Shown: positions 23,820 to 50,456, counted from the first letter of the stretch. The stretch is 64,000 nt of DNA from Candidatus Spechtbacteria bacterium RIFCSPLOWO2_12_FULL_38_22 (GCA_001820055.1 MHOK01000005.1:7371-71370); one strand, 5' to 3'. Notes: generated by a model from the letters alone, not told the origin. Numbers and translations are program-made.

Positions 23820-24239
23820 ATGGAAAAAATTTTTAATAGAATACTATTTGGGGTATTGATCATATTTATCGCGACACTTCCGATATCTCCACAAATTACT
23901 GAAGCAGATACAAGAGGGGGCGGACTAATCCCTTGCGGAGGAACTGAAAACCCTTGCGGTGTACGGGATCTATTTGTTCTACTGCACAATGTGGTGGATT
24001 TTGGTATTACAAAACTGGCTCCCATATTCGTTGTAATGATGCTCGTAATTGGAGGGTTCCACATACTAACTTCGGCAGGTAATCCGGGGCGCGTTACCAA
24101 GGGTAAGGACCTAATAAAATGGGCCTTAATCGGTTATGCGATAGTATTATTGTCATGGATCATTATAAATACGATATTTAGTCTCATCGGCCTTGCCAAT
24201 TGGACGGGGTTAAACAAATGGTGGGAAATAAAACTATAA
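23820..24239 (+). CDS. Small exported VirB2/TrbC-like (pilin-like) two-helix protein, stand-alone paralog
   Basis: 139 aa. Signal peptide, Cys pair (PCGGTENPCG), TM1, motif SAGNPGRVTKGKDL, TM2 (ILLSWIIINTIF). Same module as the N-terminal parts of 46899-48122 and 48132-49715. Confidence 0.45.
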   Translation: MEKIFNRILFGVLIIFIATLPISPQITEADTRGGGLIPCGGTENPCGVRDLFVLLHNVVDFGITKLAPIFVVMMLVIGGFHILTSAGNPGRVTKGKDLIKWALIGYAIVLLSWIIINTIFSLIGLANWTGLNKWWEIKL

Positions 24240-35642: not shown

Positions 35643-35720
35643 TTGAACAACAAAAACAAAGCTTGGTTTAAGATACAAACTATGTTATACTACGTTTAGC
35701 ATTCAAGGAAGGAGTAGGTA

Positions 35721-35966
35721 ATGTTGACATTCTTGGTACTAACGCTTTGGTTATCTTGTGGGTACGTAGGTTCTGCTATTATGTCCGCTCATTTTATAGA
35801 AAATACTCCCAATGCTGGATTTAATAAGATAGACAAACTCTTTGCTTGGCTGGTGGTATTGCTGGGATTGGTTACTATGGTAATGGCGCTCTTAATTGCG
35901 GGTAATTTCTTTCGCTCCCATAAAAAACCCCTATGGAATTGGCCTTTCTATAATAACAACAAGTAA
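35721..35966 (+). CDS. Small two-TM membrane protein
   Basis: 81 aa. Two hydrophobic helices. Confidence 0.35.
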   Translation: MLTFLVLTLWLSCGYVGSAIMSAHFIENTPNAGFNKIDKLFAWLVVLLGLVTMVMALLIAGNFFRSHKKPLWNWPFYNNNK

Positions 35967-35978
35967 TATACGTCTTTA

Positions 35979-36006
35979 TGTCGTCCTGTCAGGACGACAT
36001 TTTTGT
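35979..36006 (+). terminator. Intrinsic terminator
   Basis: Perfect hairpin ATGTCGTCC-TGTCA-GGACGACAT followed by TTTTT. Confidence 0.6.
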
Positions 36007-36079
36007 AAAACAGTCTTTATTCAATGTCGTTTACTTGACGCACAACATAAGTACATACAAGAAAATAAAACAAAAACAA

Positions 36080-36190
36080 AAGAGTCTGTATAATTTTATT
36101 TCGTCGTAAGTGGGAATGAGCGTAGCGAATGGCAGCGTGAAATAAAATTATACAGACTCTTTTGTTAATAAACTGTACTGTTTTTTATTT
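36080..36190. repeat. Inverted-repeat hairpin element, family A copy 4 (lacks the inner palindrome module)
   Basis: AGAGTCTGTATAATTTTATTTCGTCGTAAG-TGGGAATGAGCGTAGCGAATGGCAGCGTGAAATAAAATTATACAGACTCT plus the AATAAACTGTACTGTTTTTTATTTTTAC tail. Confidence 0.6.
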
Positions 36191-36205
36191 TTACTATTTT
36201 TAAGT

Positions 36206-37820: not shown

Positions 37821-39734
37821 ATGGATATTTTAAAAAATTTAAACGAAAAACAAAAGCAGGCAGTTAGTATAACTGATGGCCCACTTTTGATTTTGGCGGG
37901 GCCGGGAAGCGGAAAAACACGAACCCTTACACACAAAATTGTTTATTTAATTCTCAAACAAGTAAGCCCTCATAATATACTTGCCGTAACTTTTACAAAC
38001 AAGGCCGCTTCCGAAATGAAAAACCGCGTATCGGGCCTGCTTTCTGGGCCAAATGTTAAAAATCAAATGTCCAGTGTGTCGTCGGCCATGCCGACGATCG
38101 GGACCTTTCACTCCATATGCGTAAAAATTTTACGAACAGAAGCTAAAAACTTGGGTTATAACTCAAGTTTCACTATATATGACAACCAAGATCAGTTAAG
38201 TTTAATAAAAAATATAATGAAAAGCTTTGAAATGGACACTGAACAACTTCCCCCGTCTCGCGTGGCTTCTTTTATAAATGACGCAAAAGATAATTTAGTG
38301 TCGCAGTCAGAATTTCAACTAACGGCGTATAATACAGCCACGGAAAAGACATCAAAAGTGTACAGCGAATATCAAAAAAGGCTGAAAAACATAAATGCTT
38401 TTGATTTTGGCGATCTTATTACGCAGGTTGTGTTCTTGTTTCGAGAAAATAAAAACATTCTAGAAAAATACCAAAATCGTTTTCACTATATTTTGGTGGA
38501 TGAATACCAAGACACAAATACCGCCCAGTACACCTGGTTGAAACTGCTTGCGCAAAAAAACAACAACATCTGTGTAGTAGGGGATGATGCTCAAGCAATA
38601 TATGGTTGGCGCAACGCTAATTTTAGAAATATCTTAAACTTTCAAAAAGATTGGCCTGACGCTGAAATTATAAAATTAGAACAAAATTACAGATCAACCC
38701 AAAACATAGTGCTCGGTGCCTCAAATCTTATTAAAACCAACACTCTTGGCTATCCAAAAAAACTATGGACCGAAAATACTATCGGAGATCCTATATTCAT
38801 ATGCGAACTGGGAAACGAATATGAAGAGAGTGAGTTTATAATAAGCCAAATAGAACGGCTCACTGAACAAAAGCAGTACCAACTTAAAGATTTTGTTGTT
38901 TTATATAGAACAAATGCCCAATCTCGCCCGATAGAACAAATGTTCTTGAAATATGATATACCCTACAAAATAGTTGGCGGGTTAAAATTTTATCAAAGAC
39001 AAGAAGTAAAAGATGTTATTGCTTGGCTGCGCTTGTTACAAAATCCTTACGATGAAGCATCTGTTCAGAGACTCGAGCGATTAAAATTAAAGGATCTGCT
39101 AAAAAATACTCAAAACGAAGCACGGACAAAAAAGCAGGCGATTGGTGTACTGCTTAAAAAAATTAAAGACTGTGCTGGAGAAAACCCCAGTTTAGGTAAA
39201 TTGTTAAAATATGTAATTGAAATATCAAATTTTGAAATTATGTTGCGCGACAGCACAGAGAAGGGGGAGGAAAAATGGCAAAACGTACAAGAACTCTTAT
39301 CCGTCGCCCAAGACTACGGACAAATAAACGTACGGGAAGCCATAGATACCTTCCTAGAAAACGTAACTTTGGCGCAAGAAGCAGATAATATAGAATACAG
39401 CTCACAACTGGTGCACCTAATGACTCTTCATATGGCAAAGGGGTTAGAATTTCCAGTGGTTTTTATTGCAGGATGCGAAGATGGTCTTTTACCTCACTCA
39501 AGTAGCATGACCAGCGTAGAAGAATTAGAAGAAGAGCGTCGTCTTGCATATGTCGGGGTAACGCGAGCAAAAGACAGGGTTTATATGTTATTTGCGCGCC
39601 AACGGATGTTATGGGGAAATATTCAATCTAACCCTCCTAGCAGTTTTCTACATGAACTACCGCAAGAAAATATACAATTTAAACCCCTTTATGAAGAATT
39701 GGAAACAGAAGAAGATATCATAGAAATAGATTAG
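37821..39734 (+). CDS. pcrA: ATP-dependent DNA helicase, UvrD/PcrA family
   Basis: Walker A AGPGSGKTRTL. Helicase motifs II (DEYQDTN) to VI. 637 aa, shorter than typical. Confidence 0.85.
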   Translation: MDILKNLNEKQKQAVSITDGPLLILAGPGSGKTRTLTHKIVYLILKQVSPHNILAVTFTNKAASEMKNRVSGLLSGPNVKNQMSSVSSAMPTIGTFHSICVKILRTEAKNLGYNSSFTIYDNQDQLSLIKNIMKSFEMDTEQLPPSRVASFINDAKDNLVSQSEFQLTAYNTATEKTSKVYSEYQKRLKNINAFDFGDLITQVVFLFRENKNILEKYQNRFHYILVDEYQDTNTAQYTWLKLLAQKNNNICVVGDDAQAIYGWRNANFRNILNFQKDWPDAEIIKLEQNYRSTQNIVLGASNLIKTNTLGYPKKLWTENTIGDPIFICELGNEYEESEFIISQIERLTEQKQYQLKDFVVLYRTNAQSRPIEQMFLKYDIPYKIVGGLKFYQRQEVKDVIAWLRLLQNPYDEASVQRLERLKLKDLLKNTQNEARTKKQAIGVLLKKIKDCAGENPSLGKLLKYVIEISNFEIMLRDSTEKGEEKWQNVQELLSVAQDYGQINVREAIDTFLENVTLAQEADNIEYSSQLVHLMTLHMAKGLEFPVVFIAGCEDGLLPHSSSMTSVEELEEERRLAYVGVTRAKDRVYMLFARQRMLWGNIQSNPPSSFLHELPQENIQFKPLYEELETEEDIIEID

Positions 39735-39769
39735 ATGCTAACTAAATAACATATTACTAAATAACGAAG

Positions 39770-40582
39770 ATGGTGCAAAATATAAAAAACTTATTAGAAA
39801 AATACAATGTAACACCGAACAAAGTGCTGGGGCAAAATTTTTTAATAAACGAAGGTGTCGCAGATGAGCTTATCAAAGCGACGTGCTTAACAAAAGATGA
39901 TACTGTGGTTGAGGTCGGGCCGGGAACGGGTGTCATCACGAAAAAATTAGCGCAGATTGCAAAAAAAGTAATAGCTGTGGAAAAAGACCCTAAACTTATC
40001 CCAATTCTCCAAAAAGAACTAAAAACTTTTCTTAATATTGAAATTATAAACGAGGACATTCTTAAATTCAATCCCGCAAACTACTCACTACAAACTACCT
40101 GCCTACCGGACAGGCAGGCTCACTACTCACTACTTGGCGCCCCTCCCTATTATCTGACCGGACGCCTGTTTCGTCACTTTTTAGAACTCTCTCTTATTCG
40201 ACCGACACAAATCTCCCTTATTATACAGAAAAATGTCGCTCAAAGAATTATTGCAAAACCACCAAAATCTAATATCCTAGCAACATCTATTCAATTTTAT
40301 GGAGAACCAAGTATTATCAATATAATTTCTAAAAACTCTTTTTGGCCCCGACCCAAAGTTGATTCTGCTATTTTGGTGATTAAAGATATAAAAAATCCTA
40401 CCACAAATGAGCAAAACTTTTTTAAAATTGTGCGCGCTGGCTTTTCTTCACCAAGAAAACAGCTCAAATCAAACCTAAAACAACAATTTAAACTAGATAC
40501 GGCGTTGGAAATAGACTTTTCGCGCAGAGCAGAAACACTCACCATAAAAGAATGGGCATACTTAACAGAAAAACTGCGCTAG
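39770..40582 (+). CDS. rsmA: 16S rRNA (adenine1518/1519-N6)-dimethyltransferase
   Basis: VLGQNFLINEGV ... VVEVGPGTGVITKKL SAM-binding motif. Degenerate NLPYNIS region (APPYYLTG). Contains a 42-bp palindrome-bearing insertion at 40080-40133. Confidence 0.85.
   Translation: MVQNIKNLLEKYNVTPNKVLGQNFLINEGVADELIKATCLTKDDTVVEVGPGTGVITKKLAQIAKKVIAVEKDPKLIPILQKELKTFLNIEIINEDILKFNPANYSLQTTCLPDRQAHYSLLGAPPYYLTGRLFRHFLELSLIRPTQISLIIQKNVAQRIIAKPPKSNILATSIQFYGEPSIINIISKNSFWPRPKVDSAILVIKDIKNPTTNEQNFFKIVRAGFSSPRKQLKSNLKQQFKLDTALEIDFSRRAETLTIKEWAYLTEKLR
40080..40133 (+). repeat. Palindromic mini-element with 12-bp flanking direct repeats inside the rsmA reading frame
   Basis: ACTACTCACTAC-AAACTA-CCTGCCTACCGGACAGGCAGG-CTC-ACTACTCACTAC. 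The palindrome matches the inner module of family A repeats (CCTGCCTACCGCAGGCAGGC). Confidence 0.5.
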
Positions 40583-40591
40583 CGCAGTTTT

Positions 40592-43021
40592 TTGTTAGGG
40601 GAAAACTTCTTGAGCAAACGTGCTCTTCTATTGTATAATAAATCTATAACTAGTATGGATTTTTATAGAAAACTCCGCAAATTTTTTATTACAAAAAATC
40701 TGCATATGTCGCAGAGTATTCTTAGTATTTCGCTGTCCATAAGATACTCAAAATACTTCCTCACAGCTATCGTTTTTGTAGTATTTGGGGGATTTTTCTT
40801 TTCAGCGCAACCAACAGACGCGTTCGGATTTTTAGCGTGGTTCGGTGTTGGTTTATTAGCGGATATACTTACTGGTGGACACGTCTTAAGTGCCGTAGCA
40901 GCACCCTTCTTCGAAGCCTTAATGAAGATATTGACCGAATTTATATTTCCAATTGTTGAAGCTGTCATAACCTCAATATTATCCTTCATAAACTTCTTAC
41001 TCACTGGAATTGTATATGTGGCAAAAACCATAATGGAGTTTGCTTTAAACTTTTCCCTTACCGCTCCTTACACAGACACAAGCCAAGGAGTTATAAAAGC
41101 CGCATGGCCGATATTTAGAGATTTGGCAAATATGGGACTTATTCTAGTACTAGTAGCTATCGGCATCGGGACAATACTTAACCTAAAGACAAACCGCAAC
41201 CAATTGATGCCCTTTATTATAATCGCGTTTCTAATTAACTTTACTCCGATGCTTACGGGCATCGTTATAGATTTAAGTAACTTAACCGCACGTATCTTTT
41301 TTGACGCGGCGCAAAATGCCTCAAACGCGTTTCTAGCTGGGAATCCATTTTCAGGTTCAATGGACAGACTTGGGGGAAGCATACCACTAATAGGTAGAGG
41401 AATATCAGGAGATGCGTTCGGAGCAACAGATTTTTCTGGCATCTCAATTTTTGCCATAATGACTACCATATTTTTACTTGTCCTAATTTTTGCGTACTTA
41501 CTGCTAGGCGCGCTATTTTTGGGTAGAACTTTGGCGCTTTGGTTGCTTGTTATATTTTCTCCTATAGCGTTTGTGGCTTATATACTTCCCTCGACCAGAA
41601 AAGTTTTTGATAACTGGTGGAACAACTTTTTAAAATGGTCCCTCATCGCAATACCCCTTATATTCTCTTTGTGGCTAGCGGGTATATTTTTACATAACAC
41701 AAGTGTTGGTTGTCAGGCGATATCTCAAAGTGCGATAGAACAAAATATTGGCGAAAACTTAGAGGAAAACGACGGAACAATAACAGGAGAGTCGTCGTTA
41801 GCAGGAGATGACTACGCAACCATACTTTATCCTGTAACCGCCGCGCAAACCAATACCGGCACAAATATGATTTGCGGAATTACATCTATGATATTTGCTC
41901 TTGGGACGCTATTTGTTGGCATATCTATGAGCTTAAAAAGTTCTGCCACAGGGGCGAACATTATAATATCGCGCGCTAAAAAACTGAAAGATGCGATGAT
42001 GAAAAAAGCTTCAAAGTGGGCAGGCACTGAAGCTGAAAAAAGGGGAAGACAACTTACGGCAAGACCGCTTTCAAAAGCGGGGCAGGGCTTGGCAGATTCT
42101 CGCCTTGGGCGCAGCGCTCTAGGGTCACCACTTCGCAACCTCGGGCTTGCGATGCAACGCCCTGCTGTAAAATGGGCTCAACAATATAAAGAGCACGAAA
42201 AGAAATTCCAAGGCATGAGCTGGGAACAAATGAAAGGAATGTTGTTTGAACGCACAGACAAAGGGTCTGCTGCGTGGGCATACGCCGCTAAAAACCACGC
42301 CGGAGATTTAAGAAAAACCTTAGATGATCCAAAAACTGGAGGTGGCCTAAGAAAAGTTATGAAAGCAAAGATGAAAAAAGCTAATTTACGAGGCGATGAC
42401 TCTATGAAAGAGGTAGAAAAAATTGATCCAAAAACCGCAGCAGAAACAAAACATGCCGGTATCAGTGATGAAGGAAAACGACTAGATGCTATAAAAAATG
42501 AAATACATAAGATAGTAGAAAAGCTAGATGACAAAGCGGTCGCAAACCTATCTAATTCGTCTCTGGGAGATACTAGAGTTGTAAAAGCGCTAGAGGAACA
42601 AGGCAAGTTAACTAAGGGTGCCATTGAAAATCTGGCAAAAGAAGAAACACGACTTGCAACGCTGGACACCATTCTGCAAGAAAACTACAAAAAAGAATTG
42701 GTCAAAGAATTAAAGAAAATGACATCAGAAGAAAGAATAAAAACATTTGGATCAGTTGGATCACTTATAGCGAGAGGGGGGGATTTATCACCCGAAGCAT
42801 ACAAAAAATTCCTATCAAGTCCTGAAAACTATAAAAAAATGTTGCGATACAAAAAGGATAAAAGTGGGGGGCGTGTTAGCCCGTACTTGGAAACCATAGA
42901 GGCTCACCCTTATGCGGCGGCGTTTCACTTCACAACCAAAGAATCTGTCCGGGAAGGACTAACAAAAAAAGATTTCGAGACTTTTAGAAAAGAAATGACC
43001 TCAAAGGAAGATAAAAAATAA
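40592..43021 (+). CDS. VirB6/TrbL-like polytopic membrane protein with long hydrophilic C-terminal domain
   Basis: ~8-10 TM helices in the first ~400 aa. Charged Lys/Ala-rich ~400-aa C-terminal extension. Position at the head of the VirB3/VirB4 cluster. True start may be 40655 or 40706. Confidence 0.45.
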   Translation: MLGENFLSKRALLLYNKSITSMDFYRKLRKFFITKNLHMSQSILSISLSIRYSKYFLTAIVFVVFGGFFFSAQPTDAFGFLAWFGVGLLADILTGGHVLSAVAAPFFEALMKILTEFIFPIVEAVITSILSFINFLLTGIVYVAKTIMEFALNFSLTAPYTDTSQGVIKAAWPIFRDLANMGLILVLVAIGIGTILNLKTNRNQLMPFIIIAFLINFTPMLTGIVIDLSNLTARIFFDAAQNASNAFLAGNPFSGSMDRLGGSIPLIGRGISGDAFGATDFSGISIFAIMTTIFLLVLIFAYLLLGALFLGRTLALWLLVIFSPIAFVAYILPSTRKVFDNWWNNFLKWSLIAIPLIFSLWLAGIFLHNTSVGCQAISQSAIEQNIGENLEENDGTITGESSLAGDDYATILYPVTAAQTNTGTNMICGITSMIFALGTLFVGISMSLKSSATGANIIISRAKKLKDAMMKKASKWAGTEAEKRGRQLTARPLSKAGQGLADSRLGRSALGSPLRNLGLAMQRPAVKWAQQYKEHEKKFQGMSWEQMKGMLFERTDKGSAAWAYAAKNHAGDLRKTLDDPKTGGGLRKVMKAKMKKANLRGDDSMKEVEKIDPKTAAETKHAGISDEGKRLDAIKNEIHKIVEKLDDKAVANLSNSSLGDTRVVKALEEQGKLTKGAIENLAKEETRLATLDTILQENYKKELVKELKKMTSEERIKTFGSVGSLIARGGDLSPEAYKKFLSSPENYKKMLRYKKDKSGGRVSPYLETIEAHPYAAAFHFTTKESVREGLTKKDFETFRKEMTSKEDKK

Positions 43022-43035
43022 CAAACACAAACATT

Positions 43036-43611
43036 ATGTTGGATATTGCCCTTAATAACTACGTACAAGCATTTGATACAACTCCGCAGAAGATAAAGGA
43101 TGTGCTTTTTGCCGACTTTACATCATCGGCAATAAAAAACATTACTCACCGACATAACGCGCAAAATAACATGCTGGATATATCTGCAACCATTGGTTAT
43201 GTACTAGTTGGCCTTATTCCCGTAAAAAACATTATTGAAGTTTTAAAATTAGAAGCGCAACTTGATCAAAACACAGCTCGCAATATAGCCTATGACATAC
43301 GCGAACAGATATTCGCGCCCATAGCTCAAGAACTTGCTTCAATACAAGCGCAAGCGCAAAACAGTTGGGGACAAATCAACGTACTTCAACCGCAAACAAT
43401 GCTTACTGTAGCTCCTGTTTTAGACGAATCAATCACAAGAGAAAAACTACAAATGATTCCTCCTGCGTTACAAGACCATCCTGCCCTAGAACTCCCCACA
43501 AAAGTAGCGCCCGCCCCGCCTCAAAACTTGCCAACAGAACCAAAAGCAATAGACAATATTCCGCCCGACAATCGAATAGATTTAAGAGACAAAAGAGATA
43601 CAAGGTTTTAA
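43036..43611 (+). CDS. Hypothetical soluble protein in the T4SS-like cluster
   Basis: 191 aa. No TM. Gln/Pro-rich C-terminus. Confidence 0.3.
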   Translation: MLDIALNNYVQAFDTTPQKIKDVLFADFTSSAIKNITHRHNAQNNMLDISATIGYVLVGLIPVKNIIEVLKLEAQLDQNTARNIAYDIREQIFAPIAQELASIQAQAQNSWGQINVLQPQTMLTVAPVLDESITREKLQMIPPALQDHPALELPTKVAPAPPQNLPTEPKAIDNIPPDNRIDLRDKRDTRF

Positions 43612-43634
43612 CGCCTACTGATAAACCCGTACAC

Positions 43635-43695
43635 TATTACTAGATTGCAGAAGTACCAAATTACTAGATTACAAAATTACTAAATTACCAGATTT
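43635..43695 (+). repeat. Upstream repeat module (family U), 5' of the VirB3-like gene
   Basis: ATTACTAGATTGCAGAAGTACCAAATTACTAGATTACAAAATTACTAAATTACCAGATTTG. Confidence 0.5.
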
Positions 43696-43717
43696 GTTAT
43701 CTTGTTATTTAATTATA

Positions 43718-44119
43718 ATGCAATATTCAACTCCACAATTTATAGACAGGGAACAAAAGCTGCTGGGGCCACTAACTGTACACCAAACAGTTATTCTTGG
43801 TTTAACTACTGTGTTTTTGGTAATATCCTATTTTATATTTAATTTCTTTTTGTTTAGCGTGTTACTCGTAATTCTTGGAGGCACGAGTATCTCAATATCT
43901 TTTATTAAAATAAACGACAGACCAGTATACCAGTTTGTAACTTCTTTTTTTGGATATTTTTTAAAACCCCGCATATACATATGGCAAGGAGAATCTCAAA
44001 ATCCTGTTGCGCAACCTCAAACCACGCAAAAGACACAACAAGAAACTGAGCCTCAAAAGAGATCTCCCCAAATTACAAAAAAAGAACTAGAAGAACTGAC
44101 AGAATTTCTTAACAAATAA
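43718..44119 (+). CDS. VirB3-like small membrane protein
   Basis: Two adjacent TM helices near the N-terminus. Immediately upstream of VirB4. The ORF track starts at TTG 43694. Confidence 0.3.
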   Translation: MQYSTPQFIDREQKLLGPLTVHQTVILGLTTVFLVISYFIFNFFLFSVLLVILGGTSISISFIKINDRPVYQFVTSFFGYFLKPRIYIWQGESQNPVAQPQTTQKTQQETEPQKRSPQITKKELEELTEFLNK

Positions 44120-44120
44120 T

Positions 44121-44771
44121 ATGGCACAACCCTCAACTCAACAATTTATACCGATAGATAATATAAGAGATGATGTGGTTATTTTAAAAGGCGGGCAAAT
44201 GCGCGCTGTTTTACAAGTATCCAGCATAAACTTGGCCCTAAAATCGCAAGACGAACAGGACGCAATAATTCAAAGTTACGGAGCGTTTCTTAATTCTCTA
44301 GAATTCCCGATACAGATACTCGCAAATTCCCGCTATATGAACCTAGACGAATATCTTAAAAACCTCAACGACATGATAGAGAAACAGCCATCCGAACTGA
44401 TGCAGATACAAACCCAAGAATATATAAATTTTATACAAGAATTCTTGTCACAAGACTATGTAGTATCTACAAACTTTTACGTTACGGTGCCCTTCAGTCT
44501 GGTTGATATAGATATTCAAAAGGGCGGTGCGCAAGAAAGATTTAAAGCCTTACTTGGAAAACAAAGCGAACTATCCTATATAGACCCCAAAGAATTTGTA
44601 TCTTACAGGAACCAACTAGTGCAGAGGGTTGAATTTATAGCAAGCGGTTTGCACAGAATGGGACTTGTTATAGATATGCTAAACACCGAACAGTTAATAT
44701 CCTTGTTTTGGAGCTTGTACAATCCCGAGGACTTAAAAAAAAGGTCTTTAGTAAAATCATTATTTGAATAA
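44121..44771 (+). CDS. VirB4/TrbE-family protein, N-terminal domain encoded as a separate ORF
   Basis: IPIDNIRDDVVILKGGQMRAVLQVSSINLALKSQDEQDAI... resembles the VirB4 N-terminal domain. Stop TAA overlaps the next ORF's start (TAATATG). Confidence 0.55.
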   Translation: MAQPSTQQFIPIDNIRDDVVILKGGQMRAVLQVSSINLALKSQDEQDAIIQSYGAFLNSLEFPIQILANSRYMNLDEYLKNLNDMIEKQPSELMQIQTQEYINFIQEFLSQDYVVSTNFYVTVPFSLVDIDIQKGGAQERFKALLGKQSELSYIDPKEFVSYRNQLVQRVEFIASGLHRMGLVIDMLNTEQLISLFWSLYNPEDLKKRSLVKSLFE

Positions 44772-46542
44772 TATGAAGCAGCTTGACGCACAACAAATCA
44801 ACCAGAAAGAACTTGAGCAAGAAAAAAAAAGGCGTTTAATAAATGTCCTGGCACCTCCGGTGGTAGAAATTGAAGCAGATTTTATAAAATTAGGTGGAGT
44901 ATTTGTTCGTACATTATTTATATCAAGTTACCCTAGATTTCTTTCACAAAACTGGATCAGTCCAATTATAAATTTGGACGAAACTGTTGATGTGTCCATA
45001 TTTATACAACCGATACCAACAGAATCTGTGCTTAAAAAACTGGAAAGCCAACTGACCGGCGTGGAAGCAGATATGATGGAGCGAGAAAAAAAGGGGCTGA
45101 TTCGCGACCCATTGCTTGAAGCGGCGTATACAAATATAGAAGATTTGAGAGATAAAATGCAAACCTCAGAAGAGAGGGTATTTAAGTTTGGGTTATATTT
45201 AATGCTTTACGGAAAAACAAAAGAAGCGCTTGAAGATGTTGAAAATAAAATTAAATCCCTACTGGAAAGTAGATTGATATACGCAAAACCCGTTGTATAC
45301 AAACAAGAACAGGGAATCGTGGGTGGACTACCTCTGGGTATAGACAACCTTAAATTAAACACGAGCCTAAACACATCATCGCTTTCTGCGTCTTTCCCTT
45401 TTGTTTCTTTTGACTTATCGGACAACAAGGGCATTCTTTATGGAATTAACCGACACAATTCAAGCCTAATACTATTTGACCGTTTCTCCTTAGAAAACGC
45501 AAATACTGTGGTTTTAGGAAAAAGTGGGGGGGGTAAAAGTTATGCTGTAAAATTAGAGATTCTGCGCTCTTTAATGCTTGGCATAGACAATATTGTAATA
45601 GATCCAGAAAATGAGTATAAATATCTTGCGGAAGCGACAGGAGGCAGTTTTTTTCATATATCGCTTACAAGCGGGGACCATATAAACCCTTTTGATATAC
45701 CCCAACCCCAACCAGACGATAAACCTCAAGAGGTTTATCGGGCTAATGTAATAACCTTAATGGGACTACTCAAACTTATGCTGGGCTCTATGACCCCAGA
45801 AGAAGAAAGCGTTTTAAATGAAGCAATAGACCAAACTTATGCCTCATACGATATTACAGCGGACACAGAGAGTTTCTGGAAAAAATCTCCACCCCTAATG
45901 AGAGACCTCCAGGCCGTGCTAGAAAGCATGCAAGGGGGAGAAGCGCTTGGACAACGGTTAGAAAAATATACGAAAGGCATCTATTCAGGATTTTTAAACG
46001 AAAGAACAAACGTAGAGCTAAACGACCAGCTGGTTGTTTTAAGCATAAGGGATATGGAAGAGGAACTGCGCCCAATAGCCATGTATATAATAATTGACTA
46101 TATCTGGGGAGCTATACGGCGGGAGCTTAAAAAAAGAATTTTAACAATAGACGAGGCTTGGTGGATGCTACAACAAAAAGAAAGTGCCTCGTTTTTGTTT
46201 GGAATTGCAAAACGAGCTCGTAAATACTTTTTGGGGTTAACAACTATCTCCCAAGATATAGCAGATTTTTTAAGCAGTGACTACGGCCGCGCTATTATTG
46301 CAAATTCTTCACTTCAAATTTTAATGAAGCAGTCTCCAACCACAATAGACCAAGTGCAAGAAGTATTTAATTTGACAGATGAAGAAAAACTACTGTTACT
46401 GGAGGACAATGTGGGCGAGGGTTTGTTTTTTGCGGGAACCAAGCATGTCGCCATAAAAATAATGTCCTCCTACATAGAAGACCAAATAATAACATCCGAC
46501 CCAGAGCAACTGCTTGAAATAAAAAGAATGAAAGAAAATTAA
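44764..46542 (+). CDS. VirB4/TrbE-family T4SS ATPase, C-terminal ATPase domain
   Basis: Walker A VVLGKSGGGKSY. DPENEY motif. Walker B ILTIDEAWWML. Probable ATG start at 44773. Confidence 0.85.
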   Translation: MNNMKQLDAQQINQKELEQEKKRRLINVLAPPVVEIEADFIKLGGVFVRTLFISSYPRFLSQNWISPIINLDETVDVSIFIQPIPTESVLKKLESQLTGVEADMMEREKKGLIRDPLLEAAYTNIEDLRDKMQTSEERVFKFGLYLMLYGKTKEALEDVENKIKSLLESRLIYAKPVVYKQEQGIVGGLPLGIDNLKLNTSLNTSSLSASFPFVSFDLSDNKGILYGINRHNSSLILFDRFSLENANTVVLGKSGGGKSYAVKLEILRSLMLGIDNIVIDPENEYKYLAEATGGSFFHISLTSGDHINPFDIPQPQPDDKPQEVYRANVITLMGLLKLMLGSMTPEEESVLNEAIDQTYASYDITADTESFWKKSPPLMRDLQAVLESMQGGEALGQRLEKYTKGIYSGFLNERTNVELNDQLVVLSIRDMEEELRPIAMYIIIDYIWGAIRRELKKRILTIDEAWWMLQQKESASFLFGIAKRARKYFLGLTTISQDIADFLSSDYGRAIIANSSLQILMKQSPTTIDQVQEVFNLTDEEKLLLLEDNVGEGLFFAGTKHVAIKIMSSYIEDQIITSDPEQLLEIKRMKEN

Positions 46543-46543
46543 T

Positions 46544-46897
46544 ATGGCTTTGCTCCACAAGAAATTAAAAAAGCGTATAGAAAAAGAATCTGTGTGGGGA
46601 GATAACTTCTTAATATTATTCTGGGCTATATTTATAGACATTATAGGATTTATTTCCGGATTATTGGGATTTCTTATTGTTCCTATAATATTTTCTAACA
46701 TTCTAAGTTCCATAGCCGGTATTCCTATTTTTGTTTGGGGTTATAAAAAATATAAAAAACGCGGAGGCTTTGGTGTTTGGAAATACATAAAACAAGTCTG
46801 GAGGACATCTCTAGCAGAAACGCTTGTAAGCCCGGGACCATGGTTAACTTTATTCGTAAGAAAAACAATACGAGGTAAAAAAATATTTAAATTCTAA
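46544..46897 (+). CDS. Small membrane protein in the T4SS-like cluster
   Basis: 117 aa. Basic N-terminus and 2-3 TM helices. Confidence 0.35.
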   Translation: MALLHKKLKKRIEKESVWGDNFLILFWAIFIDIIGFISGLLGFLIVPIIFSNILSSIAGIPIFVWGYKKYKKRGGFGVWKYIKQVWRTSLAETLVSPGPWLTLFVRKTIRGKKIFKF

Positions 46898-46898
46898 A

Positions 46899-48122
46899 AT
46901 GCTAAACTTCACAAAAAAGTCCACAAGCATTCTTGCGCTCTTCATACTAGTTTTTGGCGGTTGGGGTATAAACGCAAACACGCATGACACACGAGAAGCT
47001 GATATAATATATACTCCGCCATCCGAAGCAACTACCACAGCGGGAGAACCCATAGAACTGGGACCTATAAAATGCAACGTTAACTGGCCACGAATTCCTA
47101 TTCCGGGCGGAACTTTTGACCTAAACGAGTACTGCCAACCGGGCGCTTCAATAAGTATCGGCACCGTGATTGCCGCAATATATGCAACAGCACTCTGGCT
47201 TGGCGGTTTAATCGCATTTGGCGCTTTGTTTTATTCAGGGTTTTTATATATATTTTCTGGAAATGTTCCGGCAAATCGGTCTAAAGCGCGGGGTATGCTA
47301 GTTAATGTAGCATGGGGCATGGGAATACTACTACTTTCCTGGGTAACGCTCAGGTTGATAAATCCAGATATAACTAACCTAAAATTCCAAGAACCTCAAA
47401 AAACTAGAGTATGTCTGGACGCCAATCAGATAAACTGCATACCGGTGCCGGGTTTTATAGGAAGAGTCTCCTATAGCCCATACAATGCCGGAGATCCCTT
47501 GGAATCGGCTAGATGTATCGGGACAGGAGATGTGCGAGTGGGAGACTCCACTCTAAACAGTCTGGCAAATATTATGTGTGAAAGCGAAGAACTACTTAGA
47601 AAAGACGCCCATTCTTACCTAATACAGGCTGTCGGAAATTCAAATTGTTCTCAAGAGGATGTGGATGCGCTGTTGTTAAAAACAGAAACACTATGTCCTG
47701 CGAACCAGCCCGGAGATGAAGCGCTGGGAATAACCGGGGACACTGTGTCAACTGGTTTATGCTACTGGCAAGGACAATACGGTGGGGGAGCAGGAATATC
47801 TTTTGGAGCAAGCGGAGCTGTATATTTTCCGAATGACTATCTAGGCGATGCAGCTGATGATTTTTTGGAAATTGCTAACCTAGACATAATTGATGCTACG
47901 TCTCCCAGTGCCGAATTCGTTAATGCTATTCAAAAAAACCTTGACGCTGTTTTTGACTATTGTTCAAACGAAGATTCTAACCCCAACATCTGCATACTAC
48001 TGGACGAAGACGAATCCAACATCGCTGACCTAAACCCAGCACGAAGGGAGGCGCTACGTTGTTTCTGCACCAGGGACATATTACCATCCAAGTGGAACCC
48101 ATCTTTCCCTGAATGCAACTAA
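46899..48122 (+). CDS. Exported protein: VirB2/TrbC-like two-helix module fused to a Cys-rich ectodomain
   Basis: Signal peptide. Residues ~67-165 read IPGGTFDLNEYC...GGLIAFGALFYSGFLYIFSGNVPANRSKARGMLVNVAWGMGILLLSWVTLRLINPD, paralogous to the 23820 and 48132 proteins. C-terminal ~240 aa has 14 Cys. Confidence 0.45.
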   Translation: MLNFTKKSTSILALFILVFGGWGINANTHDTREADIIYTPPSEATTTAGEPIELGPIKCNVNWPRIPIPGGTFDLNEYCQPGASISIGTVIAAIYATALWLGGLIAFGALFYSGFLYIFSGNVPANRSKARGMLVNVAWGMGILLLSWVTLRLINPDITNLKFQEPQKTRVCLDANQINCIPVPGFIGRVSYSPYNAGDPLESARCIGTGDVRVGDSTLNSLANIMCESEELLRKDAHSYLIQAVGNSNCSQEDVDALLLKTETLCPANQPGDEALGITGDTVSTGLCYWQGQYGGGAGISFGASGAVYFPNDYLGDAADDFLEIANLDIIDATSPSAEFVNAIQKNLDAVFDYCSNEDSNPNICILLDEDESNIADLNPARREALRCFCTRDILPSKWNPSFPECN

Positions 48123-48131
48123 ACACCCTTT

Positions 48132-49715
48132 ATGATTATTAAAAATAAAAAATACATAATACTGGGCTTATCTATTTTGGTACTATTGCCTACTACCTTT
48201 GTATACGCCGCAGAGTCCCCAAACATAATCTTTAATACGAACTTCCCAGCAATTCCCGCTCCAGTACCAGGAGGGTTTTTTGATTTAAATTGCATAGAAG
48301 GATTAAACTCTAATCTGTGTAGTAGCAACTTTGAATATGCTCCAACTATTGGAAACATAATTTTATTTATATTTACCGCCGCGATATGGATCGGCGGACT
48401 TGTCGCATTTGGGGTTTTATTCTACGGCGGGTTTTTATATATATTTTCTGGAAACGCTCCGGCTAATCGATCTAAAGCGCGAGGCATGTTGGTTAATGTA
48501 GCATGGGGAATTGGGATTTTACTCCTTTCTGTTGTATTTTTAAACTTAATAAACCCTGATGTTGCTAACTTGCGTTTTGAGAACCCCGAAGCCATCCAAA
48601 CTTGTCCCGACGGCACAACTGATTGTATAACCTACCCAGAATTGCCAAAACAATACAACACATTTGGATGTAGTTGGAACGAACAGGAAGACAAGTGCGA
48701 AATAGCCCAAGATACCGTAGCGTGTACACTTGGGTTTAAAACCTCTGGTGTGTGTGAAAAAGTTAATGGACTTCATAACCAAAATAGCTTACTTGATAAC
48801 GAAAAGGTTTGTAAAAGCTTAAAATCAAATGCTTGCGCGCTAAGTTCTGAGGGCGAAGACGCAGTTGGCAATGTTGGTTCCTATGTAGCATGTCTTGGAA
48901 CTTGCCTGTCACAAGGAAAATTAGAGGCAACATGCCAAAACGAGTGTTCTGTTTATACAGGAGGGGGCAGCGGATACTCTTGCCGGGAAAGATGCCAGGA
49001 AACCCTTCCTCCACAACTAGCGCATGAGTGTTCAGAGCTTCCGTCATGCTTAGAAACTCCCCCCGGAGTTACACCTGCAGCTGACGGATATTTTAAACTA
49101 CCCGCTTCAAATTTTTATACCAAAAGATACGAAGACGCATCGTGTGGCAAATTAGAACTAATACAAGCAATATATGTTGTGGCAAAAAGATGGTCAGAAA
49201 TAGGGGGGTCTAAAATGAATGTAACGGATTTAAACGGGGGAGGAGATTACAACTCCGGAGTTTGCCACTCAACCCATAATAGAGGCATCGACGTTGATAT
49301 TCATATTGAAGGTGTAACGCTGCACAAAACAGCAAATTCTGGAGAGTGGCTAATTAAACTGGGTAAACTACTAGTGGACACCGGGGTCGTGTCAGGATTC
49401 ATACACAGAACTGATGCTCCCCAGGATGCCGCAGCTTTAGAAGTTGTTAATAGATACTTTGAGAATAAATTCCCAAATCGAAACCCCTGGCACCCACCAT
49501 GGGCTCTAAATGAGGGGTTCTGGAGGACGGATACTGCAGGTAATCACGAAGATCATATGCACATACATATTGGCGACTCAGACGGAGCAACGGGGACAGG
49601 AATTCAACCTGGACCATACAATAGGTCTTGTAGTAGGGATACAACCTTAAGATATTATTCGAGCTCCGATTATTGTTGCTATAGAACAGATGGAGGGCAA
49701 CAAAAGTGTGGTTAG
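48132..49715 (+). CDS. Exported protein: VirB2/TrbC-like module, Cys-rich region, C-terminal LAS/M15-like zinc peptidase domain
   Basis: Residues ~40-145 are paralogous to the 46899 protein (FSGNAPANRSKARGMLVNVAWGIGILLLS). Residues ~375-482 read CHSTHNRGIDVDIH ... NHEDHMHIH, fitting SxHxxGxxxD plus HxH of Hedgehog/DD-peptidase-fold (M15) enzymes. Confidence 0.5.
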   Translation: MIIKNKKYIILGLSILVLLPTTFVYAAESPNIIFNTNFPAIPAPVPGGFFDLNCIEGLNSNLCSSNFEYAPTIGNIILFIFTAAIWIGGLVAFGVLFYGGFLYIFSGNAPANRSKARGMLVNVAWGIGILLLSVVFLNLINPDVANLRFENPEAIQTCPDGTTDCITYPELPKQYNTFGCSWNEQEDKCEIAQDTVACTLGFKTSGVCEKVNGLHNQNSLLDNEKVCKSLKSNACALSSEGEDAVGNVGSYVACLGTCLSQGKLEATCQNECSVYTGGGSGYSCRERCQETLPPQLAHECSELPSCLETPPGVTPAADGYFKLPASNFYTKRYEDASCGKLELIQAIYVVAKRWSEIGGSKMNVTDLNGGGDYNSGVCHSTHNRGIDVDIHIEGVTLHKTANSGEWLIKLGKLLVDTGVVSGFIHRTDAPQDAAALEVVNRYFENKFPNRNPWHPPWALNEGFWRTDTAGNHEDHMHIHIGDSDGATGTGIQPGPYNRSCSRDTTLRYYSSSDYCCYRTDGGQQKCG

Positions 49716-49740
49716 TTGTTTATTATTAACATAAAAGTAA

Positions 49741-50394
49741 ATGAAGCATAATCTGAAAACTTTATTAGCCTTTGGCGGCTTACTGCTGGGTTTAACTTTG
49801 ATATTTGTATTTATAAATAGGTTATGGGATGTACAAGATCCAGAAACTTTTGTAATAAAGAGAACAGACCAAACAACAACGCAATGGGATAGAATTTTAC
49901 AACAAAAAGACACAGAGAACGCAAAGATTATAACTAATGTATACGACGGCTACGAAATAACAATTCCAAAAAATTGGCTAGCTCCCCAAAAAAGTCCCTC
50001 TGCCCTACGTCTATATTCATACGAACAGCTACAATACCGTACAGAAAAAAATCTATTAGAAAATATAGAAAAATGGCCCCCACTAGAACACGAGATGCCG
50101 ATATTCAGTATAGATATCTTAGAAAAAATAGAAAAAACCCCTCTAGATGTTTGGCTAAACACCTCGCCCTTTGTAACAAACGTCCTCCCTGGTGAATTAA
50201 TTTTTAAAAAAATAAAAATAAACACTTTGGAAGCCTTGAAAGCTATACAACAAACATATGAAGAAGACGGTAGCCTAGGACTTATGCAAAGTGTCTTTGT
50301 TGTGTCTGGTAAGAATAGAGTTTACATCTTAACCTGCGCCGACGACTTACAAAAATGTGAAAACGCGATAAAAACCTTTAAAATCCTCGAATAA
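49741..50394 (+). CDS. Bitopic membrane protein, possibly VirB8-like
   Basis: 217 aa. N-terminal TM plus ~190-aa extracytoplasmic domain, the VirB8/PrgL topology and size. No motif-level support. Confidence 0.25.
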   Translation: MKHNLKTLLAFGGLLLGLTLIFVFINRLWDVQDPETFVIKRTDQTTTQWDRILQQKDTENAKIITNVYDGYEITIPKNWLAPQKSPSALRLYSYEQLQYRTEKNLLENIEKWPPLEHEMPIFSIDILEKIEKTPLDVWLNTSPFVTNVLPGELIFKKIKINTLEALKAIQQTYEEDGSLGLMQSVFVVSGKNRVYILTCADDLQKCENAIKTFKILE

Positions 50395-50406
50395 GTGGGC
50401 CCACAA

Positions 50407-50456
50407 ATCAACAAATAAACGTTTCAAACCTGGTTTGAAACGTTTATTTGTTGATT
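50407..50456. terminator. Palindromic hairpin (family H copy 2) between convergent genes
   Basis: AATCAACAAATAAACGTTTCAAACC-T-GGTTTGAAACGTTTATTTGTTGATT. Shares AAATAAACGTTTCAA arms with 8758-8803. Confidence 0.6.

What the first reader, a model, noticed from the sequence alone, without database searches (positions are those of the whole stretch)
40592..49715. Monoderm-type T4SS-like gene cluster without coupling protein or relaxase
Eight co-directional genes encode a VirB6-like polytopic protein with a 400-aa charged tail, a VirB3-like protein, a split VirB4 ATPase, small membrane proteins and two large exported Cys-rich proteins. No VirD4, relaxase or oriT-like nick site is visible in the window. 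That favours a non-conjugative role (DNA uptake, protein delivery or cell-cell attachment) over a mobile element, consistent with the episymbiotic lifestyle inferred for CPR bacteria. The paralogous exported proteins with pilin-like anchors do not match described T4SS components.
Basis: partly seen in the sequence, partly recalled or inferred. Interest (0 to 1): 0.85.

Follow-up and report, generated by a model that had tools for sequence, protein, structure and literature searches.

The report
Patescibacterial type IV secretion gene cluster
This is a real chromosomal type IV secretion operon of an ultrasmall "candidate phyla radiation" bacterium with no DNA-transfer genes nearby, a kind already described in 2023-2025; the one under-described detail is that two of its pilus-subunit-like proteins carry large outer domains, one a cell-wall-cutting enzyme.

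Summary
The eight co-directional genes exist as described. They form a Patescibacteria-type T4SS operon in a Candidatus Spechtbacteria genome, about 4 kb from rnpA-yidC-dnaA.

Identified parts:
- a VirB6-like polytopic protein with a 339-aa charged tail
- a conserved 191-aa accessory protein
- VirB3/PrgI
- a detached VirB4 N-terminal segment (TrsD/"TraC-like")
- a CD1110-family VirB4 ATPase
- a small 2-TM protein
- two proteins that each start with a VirB2-like T4SS_pilin module (PF18895, above Pfam threshold)

No coupling protein, relaxase or integrase is encoded anywhere in the 64-kb window.

Its claim that the exported proteins match no described T4SS component is wrong. Both carry the T4SS pilin domain, and the second ends in a MepA-like (M74/LAS) murein endopeptidase domain.

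This system class is already published (Wang 2023 Cell; Quiñonero-Coronel 2025 Microb Genom; FEMS Rev 2025). Those papers cover the TrsD split, the pilins, the missing relaxase and the dnaA/ksgA proximity. The locus is therefore a new member of a known kind.

The less-described feature is the pilin module fused to interchangeable cell-wall-hydrolase or Cys-rich ectodomains, seen across related loci.

The parts
40592..43021 (+). VirB6-like polytopic membrane protein: about 9 TM segments (aa 52-448) plus a 339-aa, 36% charged, presumably cytoplasmic tail. The true start is probably the ATG at about 40655.
   Evidence: Pfam TrbL E 4.4e-3, below GA. 11 of 33 orthologues hit TrbL (best 1e-8) and 2 hit TrbL_4. 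TM segments and tail composition. Orthologues of 591-1218 aa sit in the same position. Alignment to L081 starts at residue 27.
43036..43611 (+). Conserved accessory protein of unknown function (191 aa). It has an N-terminal helical domain of about 110 aa, a Pro-rich linker and a C-terminal N-x-[IV]-D-L-R motif. No signal peptide.
   Evidence: phmmer hits between VirB6 and VirB3 in many loci. Alignment A7. Strong orthologues in Spechtbacterales (E 1.6e-51 and 6.5e-35). No Pfam, NCBIfam or PDB match.
43694..44119 (+). VirB3/PrgI-like two-TM protein. The true start is probably the ATG at 43718.
   Evidence: Pfam PrgI E 6.4e-5 and TcpE 2.2e-3. Matches positions 14-102 of the fused mycoplasma ICE VirB3-VirB4 model NF045975. 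Orthologues are annotated PF12666. TM segments.
44121..44771 (+). TrsD / 'TraC-like' protein: a detached N-terminal segment of VirB4 (216 aa, soluble).
   Evidence: NCBIfam: NF045975 positions 103-222 of 894, E 2e-11; TrsD NF041427, E 4.9e-8; NF045971 positions 1-121 of 752. 733 standalone homologues carry PF26593 'TraC-like'. AF2 model pLDDT 78. The top 14 Foldseek PDB hits are all TrwK/VirB4.
44764..46542 (+). VirB4 ATPase, CD1110 / MPF_FATA-like family. Walker A (GKSGGGKS) and Walker B (ILTIDE) are intact by eye.
   Evidence: NF045971, 377.6 bits (cutoff 325), profile positions 173-734 of 752. Pfam P-loop_TraG 1.2e-28 and AAA_10. PDB 4ag5, E 6.7e-42.
46544..46897 (+). Small two-TM membrane protein. 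A small TM protein is positionally conserved immediately after virB4.
   Evidence: TM prediction, and analogous 110-240-aa 2-3-TM ORFs after VirB4 in many loci. Orthologue in L081, E 3.8e-28. No family hit.
46899..48122 (+). Pilin-module fusion 1: N-terminal leader, Cys pair and VirB2-like two-helix hairpin (aa about 59-165), followed by a roughly 245-aa Cys-rich ectodomain of unknown fold.
   Evidence: Pfam T4SS_pilin, 30.5 bits against GA 26.6. Identical to P0007, named Candidatus Spechtbacteria. The ectodomain is shared only with P0004. No PDB hit.
48132..49715 (+). Pilin-module fusion 2: signal peptide, VirB2-like hairpin (aa about 34-151), a Cys-rich linker and a C-terminal MepA-like (M74, LAS-fold) murein endopeptidase domain (aa about 320-500). 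Motifs: H382-x6-D389 and H475-x-H477.
   Evidence: T4SS_pilin, 31.1 bits against GA 26.6, and M74 E 1.5e-3. 53 of 68 homologues of the C-terminal domain hit Peptidase_M74. H379, H382, G385, D389 and H472 are invariant. The profile hits E. coli MepA 1tzp at E 1.7e-5 across both Zn motifs.
49741..50394 (+). N-terminally membrane-anchored 217-aa protein of unknown function. It is the last gene of the transcription unit, and its membership in the T4SS is uncertain.
   Evidence: TM segment 4-29. No family or PDB hit. A similarly sized TM-anchored ORF occupies an equivalent position in L083 without detectable similarity.
50408..50454 (.). Bidirectional intrinsic-terminator-like hairpin (20-bp stem) ending the operon.
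23820..24239 (+). Stand-alone small VirB2-like T4SS pilin (139 aa), a candidate major pilin. It is encoded 17 kb away, between two tRNA genes.
   Evidence: Pfam T4SS_pilin E 4.5e-10, 39.9 bits. Weak NF045849 'Mbov_0395 pilin-like' hit. tRNAs.

Best explanation
The region is the chromosomal, vertically inherited, origin-proximal type IV secretion system typical of Patescibacteria, here in a Candidatus Spechtbacteria genome (Parcubacteria/Paceibacteria, my placement).

Shown here:
- The genes encode an inner-membrane platform: VirB6-like, VirB3/PrgI, and a two-piece VirB4 ATPase made of a TrsD-like N-segment and a CD1110-type motor.
- There are VirB2-like pilin modules: one small stand-alone pilin elsewhere in the window, and two in the operon fused to large Cys-rich ectodomains.
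- One of those ectodomains is a MepA-like murein DD-endopeptidase domain.

Inferred:
- VirB4 energises extraction and assembly of the pilin modules on the VirB6 platform. This builds a short pilus or conduit across the monoderm envelope.
- The pilin-anchored endopeptidase supplies the peptidoglycan-cutting activity that VirB1, PrgK or TraG provide in other T4SSs. It may act on the cell's own wall, the host's wall, or both.
- The apparatus serves host-cell interaction (attachment, protein export or molecule exchange) rather than conjugation. This is the role inferred for the essential T4SS of the saccharibacterium Southlakia epibionticum.
For: - VirB4: NF045971 above cutoff; PDB 4ag5, E 6.7e-42.
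- VirB3, TrsD and VirB4 are colinear with a single-chain ICE VirB3-VirB4 model. The TrsD model matches TrwK/VirB4.
- VirB6 family: TrbL hits in 11 of 33 orthologues.
- Three T4SS_pilin hits above GA.
- M74/LAS domain: invariant Zn-ligand motifs; 53 of 68 homologues hit M74; MepA 1tzp, E 1.7e-5.
- No T4CP, relaxase or integrase in any window ORF. GC content (0.38-0.41) is like the surroundings.
- The order ksgA-VirB6-...-VirB4-pilin(s)-...-dnaA is conserved in dozens of Patescibacteria loci.
- Literature: the S. epibionticum T4SS genes are essential for epibiotic growth, ComEC is dispensable, and no coupling protein or relaxase is recognisable in the cluster. Two large essential genes follow its virB4, one with a Hedgehog/DD-peptidase (LAS) C-terminal fold.
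- Phylum-wide survey: TrsD, PrgI, VirB6 and PF18895 pilins lie near virB4, relaxases are absent, and dnaA/ksgA/rnpA are nearby.
Against: - No function was tested; everything beyond gene identity is inference.
- The VirB6 and PrgI matches of the window proteins themselves are below Pfam gathering scores.
- The AF2 model of the 527-aa fusion was unusable (pLDDT 42), so the LAS fold rests on sequence profiles and motifs.
- Whether bulky pilin fusions can enter a pilus is unknown. They may only be membrane-anchored.
- A T4CP could be encoded elsewhere in the genome; Patescibacterial T4CP homologues usually lie far from virB4.
- No VirB8-like component was identified.
Confidence: 0.7

Rival explanations
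1. The two large pilin-module proteins are not pilus or T4SS structural subunits. They are ordinary cell-wall remodelling or surface enzymes that use a VirB2-like two-helix hairpin only as a membrane anchor. Any pilus would be built solely from small pilins such as 23820-24239.
For: - Ectodomains of 245-380 aa on every subunit seem incompatible with tight helical pilin packing (inference).
- The S. epibionticum pilins are small (104-185 aa), and its hydrolases are not reported to carry PF18895.
- A separate small pilin exists in the window.
Against: - The fusions lie inside the T4SS operon directly after virB4, and do so across many lineages.
- The pilin module is much better conserved than the ectodomains (56-61% identity against none). 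This suggests the module itself has a specific, conserved interaction.
- Even as anchors they would still be T4SS-associated hydrolases.
Confidence: 0.3
2. The cluster is a DNA-uptake (ComB-like) or DNA-release T4SS that serves competence or nucleotide acquisition. Such systems also work without a relaxase or T4CP.
For: - No T4CP or relaxase is present.
- A ComM-like Mg-chelatase helicase and UvrD lie just upstream, in conserved synteny.
- In class ABY1, T4SS loci co-localise with comF, recG and radA.
Against: - In S. epibionticum, transformation depends on ComEC, which is dispensable for growth, while the T4SS is essential.
- No ComB-specific components or DNA-binding modules were found here.
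- The UvrD/KsgA/ComM neighbourhood is ordinary origin-proximal housekeeping.
Confidence: 0.1
3. The cluster is the mating-pair-formation module of an integrated conjugative element, or a decayed one, whose relaxase, T4CP and oriT lie outside the 64-kb window.
For: - The VirB4 belongs to a family defined on conjugative elements (CD1110/CTn2).
- T4CP homologues exist in many Patescibacteria genomes, far from virB4.
Against: - No integrase, att-like repeat or adjacent tRNA target is present.
- GC content is like the surroundings.
- The cluster is embedded between ksgA and murJ-jag-yidC-rnpA-dnaA at the same chromosomal position across many divergent lineages. This indicates vertical inheritance.
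- Only 109 relaxases were found in the phylum-wide survey, and only 15 of them near virB4.
Confidence: 0.05

Closest known systems
Patescibacteria-clade T4SS (Southlakia epibionticum SEML1_0006-0019, Wang et al. 2023; phylum survey by Quiñonero-Coronel et al. 2025)
   Same: - MPF_FATA-like VirB4 with a separate TrsD-like gene upstream.
- PrgI/VirB3.
- VirB6 with a long C-terminal extension.
- PF18895 VirB2-like pilins.
- Large exported peptidoglycan hydrolases directly downstream of virB4, including a LAS/DD-peptidase fold.
- No relaxase or T4CP in the cluster.
- Location next to dnaA/ksgA/rnpA.

   Different: - Here the hydrolase and a second Cys-rich ectodomain are fused to the pilin module itself.
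- There is no tandem array of small pilins in the operon; the single small pilin is 17 kb away.
- No NTF2/VirB8-like gene was recognised.
- The lineage is Spechtbacteria, not Saccharimonadia.
Gram-positive conjugative T4SSs of the MPF_FATA class (pGO1 Trs, pCF10 Prg, pIP501 Tra, C. difficile CTn2 CD1110)
   Same: - VirB4 meets the CD1110-family model.
- TrsD/TrsE-style two-gene VirB4, as in pGO1.
- PrgI-like VirB3 and a VirB6-like channel protein.
- A membrane-anchored peptidoglycan hydrolase as an accessory.
- No outer-membrane core.
(for pGO1 TrsD)
   Different: - No relaxase, T4CP, oriT or adhesin (PrgB-like).
- VirB2-like pilins are present, which these systems lack.
- Chromosomal housekeeping context instead of a plasmid or ICE.
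Mycoplasma ICE T4SS (Mbov_0397 VirB4, Mbov_0395 pilin-like protein)
   Same: - The VirB3, TrsD and VirB4 genes are colinear with the single 894-position Mbov_0397 model.
- The small pilin weakly matches the Mbov_0395 pilin-like family.

   Different: - All scores are far below the family cutoffs.
- There the three segments are one polypeptide and the element is conjugative.
E. coli MepA (Peptidase M74, LAS metallopeptidases) and T4SS lytic enzymes VirB1/PrgK/TraG
   Same: - The C-terminal domain of the 527-aa protein shares both Zn-binding motifs with MepA.
- It belongs to a homologue set of which 53 of 68 members hit M74.
- Functionally it fills the wall-breaching role of VirB1-type enzymes (inference).
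   Different: - VirB1/PrgK are lytic transglycosylases or CHAP enzymes, not LAS peptidases.
- MepA is a soluble periplasmic housekeeping enzyme.
- The window domain itself scores below the Pfam GA (18.6 against 25).

Membership tests
Patescibacteria-clade T4SS (sensu Quiñonero-Coronel 2025 / Wang 2023) | VirB4 ATPase of MPF_FATA affinity | tested here: met
   NF045971 conju_CD1110, 377.6 bits against a cutoff of 325. 4ag5, E 6.7e-42. The 80 best genomic relatives are nearly all labelled Patescibacteria/CPR lineages, apart from a few evidently mislabelled MAGs, at 49-58% identity. No phylogenetic tree was built.
Patescibacteria-clade T4SS (sensu Quiñonero-Coronel 2025 / Wang 2023) | Separate TrsD-like gene (VirB4 N-terminal homologue) next to virB4 | tested here: met
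   NF041427 TrsD, E 4.9e-8 (below cutoff); colinearity with VirB4 models. PF26593 'TraC-like' in 733 homologues. Fold hits to TrwK. Profile-profile comparison with the VirB4 N-terminal domain was not significant.
Patescibacteria-clade T4SS (sensu Quiñonero-Coronel 2025 / Wang 2023) | VirB3/PrgI and VirB6 homologues adjacent to virB4 | tested here: met
   PrgI, E 6.4e-5, and TrbL, E 4.4e-3, both below GA for the window proteins. Orthologues: PF12666 annotated; TrbL in 11 of 33, best 1e-8.
Patescibacteria-clade T4SS (sensu Quiñonero-Coronel 2025 / Wang 2023) | VirB2-like pilin genes (PF18895) near virB4 | tested here: met
   Two in the operon at 30.5 and 31.1 bits (GA 26.6). One at 23820-24239 at 39.9 bits.
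Patescibacteria-clade T4SS (sensu Quiñonero-Coronel 2025 / Wang 2023) | No relaxase or T4CP in the cluster; chromosomal location near dnaA/ksgA/rnpA | tested here: met
   Pfam scans of the listed window ORFs of at least 100 aa that are not shadows of longer ORFs. ksgA lies immediately upstream; rnpA is 2.9 kb and dnaA 3.6 kb downstream of the last ORF of the unit (49741-50394).
Patescibacteria-clade T4SS (sensu Quiñonero-Coronel 2025 / Wang 2023) | Required for epibiotic growth | not testable with these tools
   Shown only for S. epibionticum by Tn-seq.
Conjugative element (ICE or plasmid T4SS) | Relaxase (MOB) gene and oriT | tested here: not met
   No relaxase family hit in any window ORF. 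Intergenic space inside the cluster is at most 82 nt.
Conjugative element (ICE or plasmid T4SS) | Type IV coupling protein (VirD4/TcpA) | tested here: not met
   No T4SS-DNA_transf, TraG-D_C or TrwB hit in the window. The genome outside the window was not tested.
Conjugative element (ICE or plasmid T4SS) | Integrase, att sites, or atypical composition marking an island | tested here: not met
   No integrase was found; there is only an IS200-like Y1_Tnp at 22025-22750. GC of 0.38-0.41 matches the window. The chromosomal position is the same in many lineages.
VirB2/TrbC-type T4SS pilin | Signal or leader peptide followed by a two-helix hydrophobic hairpin with a basic loop | tested here: met
   TM predictions, the alignment of pilin modules and the PF18895 hits.
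VirB2/TrbC-type T4SS pilin | Small mature protein (about 70-130 aa) that polymerises into a pilus | tested here: not met
   Size is not met for the 407-aa and 527-aa proteins, which carry 245-380-aa extensions. It is met for the 139-aa protein. Polymerisation is not testable here.
Peptidase M74 / LAS metallopeptidases (C-terminal domain of 48132-49715) | Zn-ligand motifs H-x6-D and H-x-H in order, with family-level profile similarity | tested here: met
   H382-x6-D389 and H475-x-H477. H379, H382, G385, D389 and H472 are invariant in 68 homologues. 53 of 68 hit PF03411. The profile against MepA 1tzp gives E 1.7e-5 over both motifs. The window protein alone scores 18.6 bits, below the GA of 25.
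Peptidase M74 / LAS metallopeptidases (C-terminal domain of 48132-49715) | LAS fold and peptidoglycan DD-endopeptidase activity | tested here: inconclusive
   The AF2 model has pLDDT 42 and is unusable. Activity is not testable here.

The most novel reading that the evidence does not exclude
In Paceibacteria-type loci the VirB2-like pilin module may act as a delivery scaffold for interchangeable C-terminal 'warheads'. The domains seen are M74, M15/VanY and M23 peptidases, SLT lytic transglycosylases, GDSL esterases, an apparent zincin-like domain (an HExxH motif seen by eye), and many Cys-rich domains of unknown fold.

These would be 'evolved pilins', analogous to evolved VgrG/PAAR proteins or to tip-located minor pilins. 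They would be built into the tip or shaft of a monoderm T4SS pilus to breach the host cell wall during epibiosis. This would substitute for the missing VirB5 tip protein and for soluble effectors.
Probability: 0.22. Interest if true: 0.7.

Novelty: new member of a known kind. Interest (0 to 1): 0.35.

Why it matters
The T4SS is one of the few machines shown genetically to be essential for the epibiotic life of a patescibacterium, yet its substrate and mode of action are unknown. This locus adds nothing categorically new to the published picture.

It does give a clean example, from an uncultivated Parcubacteria lineage, of three points that bear on mechanism:
1. The VirB4 motor is consistently built from two polypeptides.
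2. The cell-wall hydrolase that accompanies the system can be covalently tied to a pilin module.
3. The ectodomains on that module are swapped between close relatives while the module stays conserved.

If the fused pilins are real pilus components, they point to the wall of the host or of the cell itself as the immediate target of the machine. They would also provide concrete proteins to test.

Tried and rejected
- hhalign of the TrsD-like family against the VirB4 N-terminal domain family: probability 1.3%, E 0.041. Not informative. The question was resolved by NCBIfam colinearity and fold search instead.
- Profile searches of the TrsD family against PDB sequences: nothing.
- AF2 of the 527-aa fusion with an 8-sequence alignment: pLDDT 42, unusable, so no fold search was run on it.
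- Word-indexed homologue search with the C-terminal domain alone: no hits, a wasted search. The exhaustive HMMER search replaced it.
- phmmer of that domain against PDB: only E 1 for MepA. Significance came only with the family profile.
- Look-up of the exact 527-aa protein in the contig index: not on record. The source contig beyond the window could not be read, so the rest of the genome could not be searched for T4CP or relaxase.
- PDB sequence searches for the 217-aa, 191-aa-family and 407-aa ectodomain proteins: nothing.
- DnaA-box consensus search: no enrichment.
- Rfam scan: only two tRNAs.
- Promoter-like sites were not enriched over shuffles.
- A frameshift or pseudogene explanation for the VirB4 split was considered and rejected. 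The 190-260-aa ORF stands alone in every related locus with upstream sequence and in 733 homologues.
- A mobile-island origin was considered and rejected on synteny and composition.

Full report
**Observation.**
- They are packed tightly, with gaps of -8 to +82 nt, and follow uvrD (37821-39734) and ksgA (39770-40582) directly.
- A ninth co-directional ORF (49741-50394) is followed by a 20-bp-stem hairpin plus T-run at 50408-50454. A convergent murJ-like gene follows that. The transcription unit therefore ends there.
- Composition (GC 0.38-0.41) does not differ from the rest of the window.

**What the genes are.**
- 44764-46542 is a VirB4 ATPase.
  - It passes NCBIfam's curated cutoff for the CD1110 family of Gram-positive conjugative VirB4s (377.6 bits against 325).
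  - It hits Pfam P-loop_TraG and AAA_10.
  - It matches the crystallised VirB4 C-terminal domain of Thermoanaerobacter (4ag5) at E 6.7e-42.
  - The Walker A (GKSGGGKS) and Walker B (ILTIDE) motifs are intact in the sequence.
- 43694-44119 is a two-TM PrgI/VirB3-like protein (E 6.4e-5, below GA). Its orthologues carry PF12666.
- 40592-43021 has about nine TM segments (aa 52-448) and a 339-aa tail that is 36% charged.
  - Its own TrbL/VirB6 hit is weak (E 4.4e-3).
  - 11 of 33 positional orthologues hit TrbL, down to 1e-8.
  - Long C-terminal extensions are the rule in this family, at 591-1218 aa. The S. epibionticum VirB6 also has one.
- 43036-43611 and 46544-46897 have no family match. Both are conserved in Spechtbacterales (E 1.6e-51 and 3.8e-28).
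  - The first belongs to a family found between virB6 and virB3 in many loci. That family has a conserved helical N-domain and a C-terminal N-x-[IV]-D-L-R motif.
  - A small 2-3-TM ORF follows virB4 in most loci.

**The 'split VirB4'.** The 216-aa ORF (44121-44771) overlaps the virB4 start by 8 nt.
- It is not a frameshift product.
  - A stand-alone ORF of 190-260 aa occupies this position in every related locus that includes upstream sequence.
  - 733 stand-alone homologues were found. All those listed carry Pfam PF26593, 'TraC-like'.
- NCBIfam shows that VirB3, this protein and VirB4 are colinear with the single-chain mycoplasma ICE VirB3-VirB4 model. They cover positions 14-102, 103-222 and 276-893 of 894.
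- It also covers positions 1-121 of the CD1110 VirB4 model, while the 592-aa protein covers 173-734. It matches the TrsD family at E 4.9e-8.
- An AF2 model built on 82 sequences (pLDDT 78) finds only R388 TrwK/VirB4 chains as its top 14 PDB matches (E 5e-4 to 9e-3).
It is the conserved TrsD/TrsE-type arrangement already noted for this phylum.

**The two 'exported Cys-rich proteins'.** Both match Pfam T4SS_pilin (VirB2-like) above the gathering score (30.5 and 31.1 bits against 26.6).
- They share a strongly conserved N-terminal module: a leader, a PxPGGxFDLNC Cys-pair motif, a two-helix hairpin and a basic loop. Their C-terminal regions are unrelated. They are paralogous only in the pilin module.
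- The 527-aa protein ends in a MepA-like murein endopeptidase domain.
  - An exhaustive HMMER search of 1.84 billion representatives found 67 relatives. The domain lies at or near the C-terminus in most of them.
  - H379, H382, G385, D389 and H472 are invariant, and H475 and H477 are nearly so.
  - 53 of the 68 aligned sequences (the window protein plus its 67 relatives) hit Peptidase_M74, and 12 also carry T4SS_pilin.
  - The family profile aligns to E. coli MepA (1tzp) at E 1.7e-5, across both zinc-ligand motifs.
- The ectodomain of the 407-aa protein (12 Cys) has one detectable relative and no known fold.
- A third, canonical small pilin (139 aa) lies at 23820-24239, between two tRNA genes.

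**Pilin fusions are a lineage-wide pattern.**
- Among 84 pilin-domain ORFs in the 80 related loci, 33 carry more than 100 aa after the hairpin, up to 946 aa. They are usually Cys-rich.
- I scanned 38 long pilin-domain proteins. Of these, 37 hit T4SS_pilin. The extra domains were SLT (7), GDSL esterase (3), Peptidase_M15 (2), VanY (1), M23 (1) and M74 (1).
- Many of the extensions have no Pfam match.
- Close homologues of the window protein keep the pilin module at 56-61% identity but swap the ectodomain. Seen alternatives are M23, an HExxH protein and the unknown Cys-rich domain.
- In Spechtbacterales contig L083, three such fusions occupy the same slot between the small TM gene and murJ.

**No conjugation genes, and no island.**
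- Pfam scans of the ORFs of at least 100 aa that are not shadows of longer ORFs, plus two shorter ones, found only housekeeping functions. There is no VirD4/TcpA-type coupling protein, relaxase or integrase. The single transposase-like hit is an IS200-type Y1_Tnp at 22025-22750.
- The operon sits between ksgA and murJ-jag-yidC-yidD-rnpA-dnaA-dnaN, near the cumulative GC-skew minimum.
- The same placement recurs in many Patescibacteria lineages. This argues for vertical inheritance rather than a mobile element.
- The rest of the genome could not be inspected. Patescibacterial T4CP homologues are usually encoded far from virB4. 'No T4CP' therefore holds only for this window.

**Organism.** The 407-aa protein is identical to a protein of Candidatus Spechtbacteria bacterium RIFCSPLOWO2_12_FULL. 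The nearest TrsD homologues are from Spechtbacterales.

**Comparison with the literature.** The class is known.
- Wang et al. 2023 (PMC10633639) showed by Tn-seq that the T4SS cluster of S. epibionticum is essential for epibiotic growth.
  - The cluster resembles Gram-positive conjugative systems, carries essential pilins, and lacks recognisable coupling and relaxase proteins.
  - ComEC is dispensable.
  - Their tables show two large essential genes directly after virB4. One has a C-terminal Hedgehog/DD-peptidase (LAS) fold; the other has lysozyme-like and cysteine-proteinase domains.
- Quiñonero-Coronel et al. 2025 (PMC12102498) surveyed the phylum.
  - They report the MPF_FATA-related VirB4 clade, TrsD next to virB4, PrgI, VirB6, and PF18895 pilins and pilin arrays.
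  - They also report the near absence of relaxases, and proximity to dnaA, dnaN, rnpA, ksgA and rpmH.
- A 2025 review repeats this.
- None of the main texts I could search mentions pilin modules fused to hydrolase domains. I could not check all supplementary tables, so that absence is weak evidence.

**Mechanism (best reading).**
- Shown: the gene identities above.
- Inferred:
  - TrsD plus VirB4, docked by VirB3 on a VirB6 platform, form the motor and assembly site.
  - VirB2-like modules are extracted from the membrane and assembled into a short pilus or conduit through the monoderm wall.
  - The pilin-tethered M74 endopeptidase provides local peptidoglycan cleavage, the VirB1/PrgK role. It may act on the cell's own wall and/or the host's.
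  - The second fusion contributes an unknown surface function.
  - The machine supports host interaction rather than conjugation.
- Rivals:
  - The fusions are merely anchored enzymes (about 0.3; this concerns only the sub-claim that they are pilus components and does not compete with the overall reading).
  - The cluster is a DNA-uptake system (about 0.1).
  - The cluster is the MPF module of an ICE whose other genes lie elsewhere (about 0.05).

**Verdict.**
- Novelty is overstated. The locus is a new member of a known, recently published kind.
- The modular pilin-ectodomain fusions, including a pilin-MepA-like endopeptidase, are the only aspect that may go beyond the published descriptions. 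They justify a moderate rather than low interest score.

Noticed in passing
window 23820-24239 (+): A stand-alone canonical T4SS_pilin gene (139 aa, E 4.5e-10) lies 17 kb from the operon. It is flanked by tRNA-Arg (22875-22951, -) and tRNA-Lys (24294-24368, +). It is a candidate major pilin for the system.
   Followed up: partly
window 43036-43611; alignment A7 of loci L002-L066: The 191-aa accessory protein belongs to a family placed between virB6 and virB3. It has a conserved helical N-domain, a low-complexity linker and a short C-terminal motif, GN[IV][IV]DL[RK]. No Pfam, NCBIfam or PDB match was found.
   Followed up: partly
loci L005, L011, L012, L015, L017, L020 and others (Moranbacteria-type): In these loci the pilin genes lie upstream of virB3, and ksgA/uvrD lie downstream. 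One of the pilin genes encodes a protein of about 250-350 aa with four or more TM segments and a C-terminal pilin domain, possibly a tandem or extended pilin.
   Followed up: no
window 10307-12208 (-): A 633-aa Cys-rich secreted protein with thrombospondin type-1/spondin-like and PKD domains. This combination is unusual for a bacterium and suggests a surface adhesin.
   Followed up: no
window 38000-50400 relative to dnaA at 54017 and the GC-skew minimum at about 55 kb: The T4SS operon is transcribed towards the presumed origin, so it is apparently head-on to replication. The same orientation is seen in Spechtbacterales locus L083. No cluster of E. coli-consensus DnaA boxes was found.
   Followed up: partly
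window 34071-37363; L081 317-3180; L083 31-960: A LysM protein (with an M23 peptidase domain in the window and in L081) lies on the opposite strand upstream of uvrD-ksgA-T4SS in the window and in the Spechtbacterales contigs L081 and L083. A ComM-like Mg-chelatase helicase lies further upstream in the window and in L081; the L083 locus ends before that position.
   Followed up: no
L081 12948-14209: In the closest relative, the slot after the small TM gene holds different genes: a 146-aa anchored protein, and a Cys-rich TM-anchored protein with a weak SLT hit and no pilin hairpin. This slot is therefore a variable cassette region.
   Followed up: partly
window 22025-22750 (-): An IS200-like Y1 transposase domain protein (E 2.8e-6) next to tRNA-Arg. 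It is the only mobile-element-like gene in the window.
   Followed up: no
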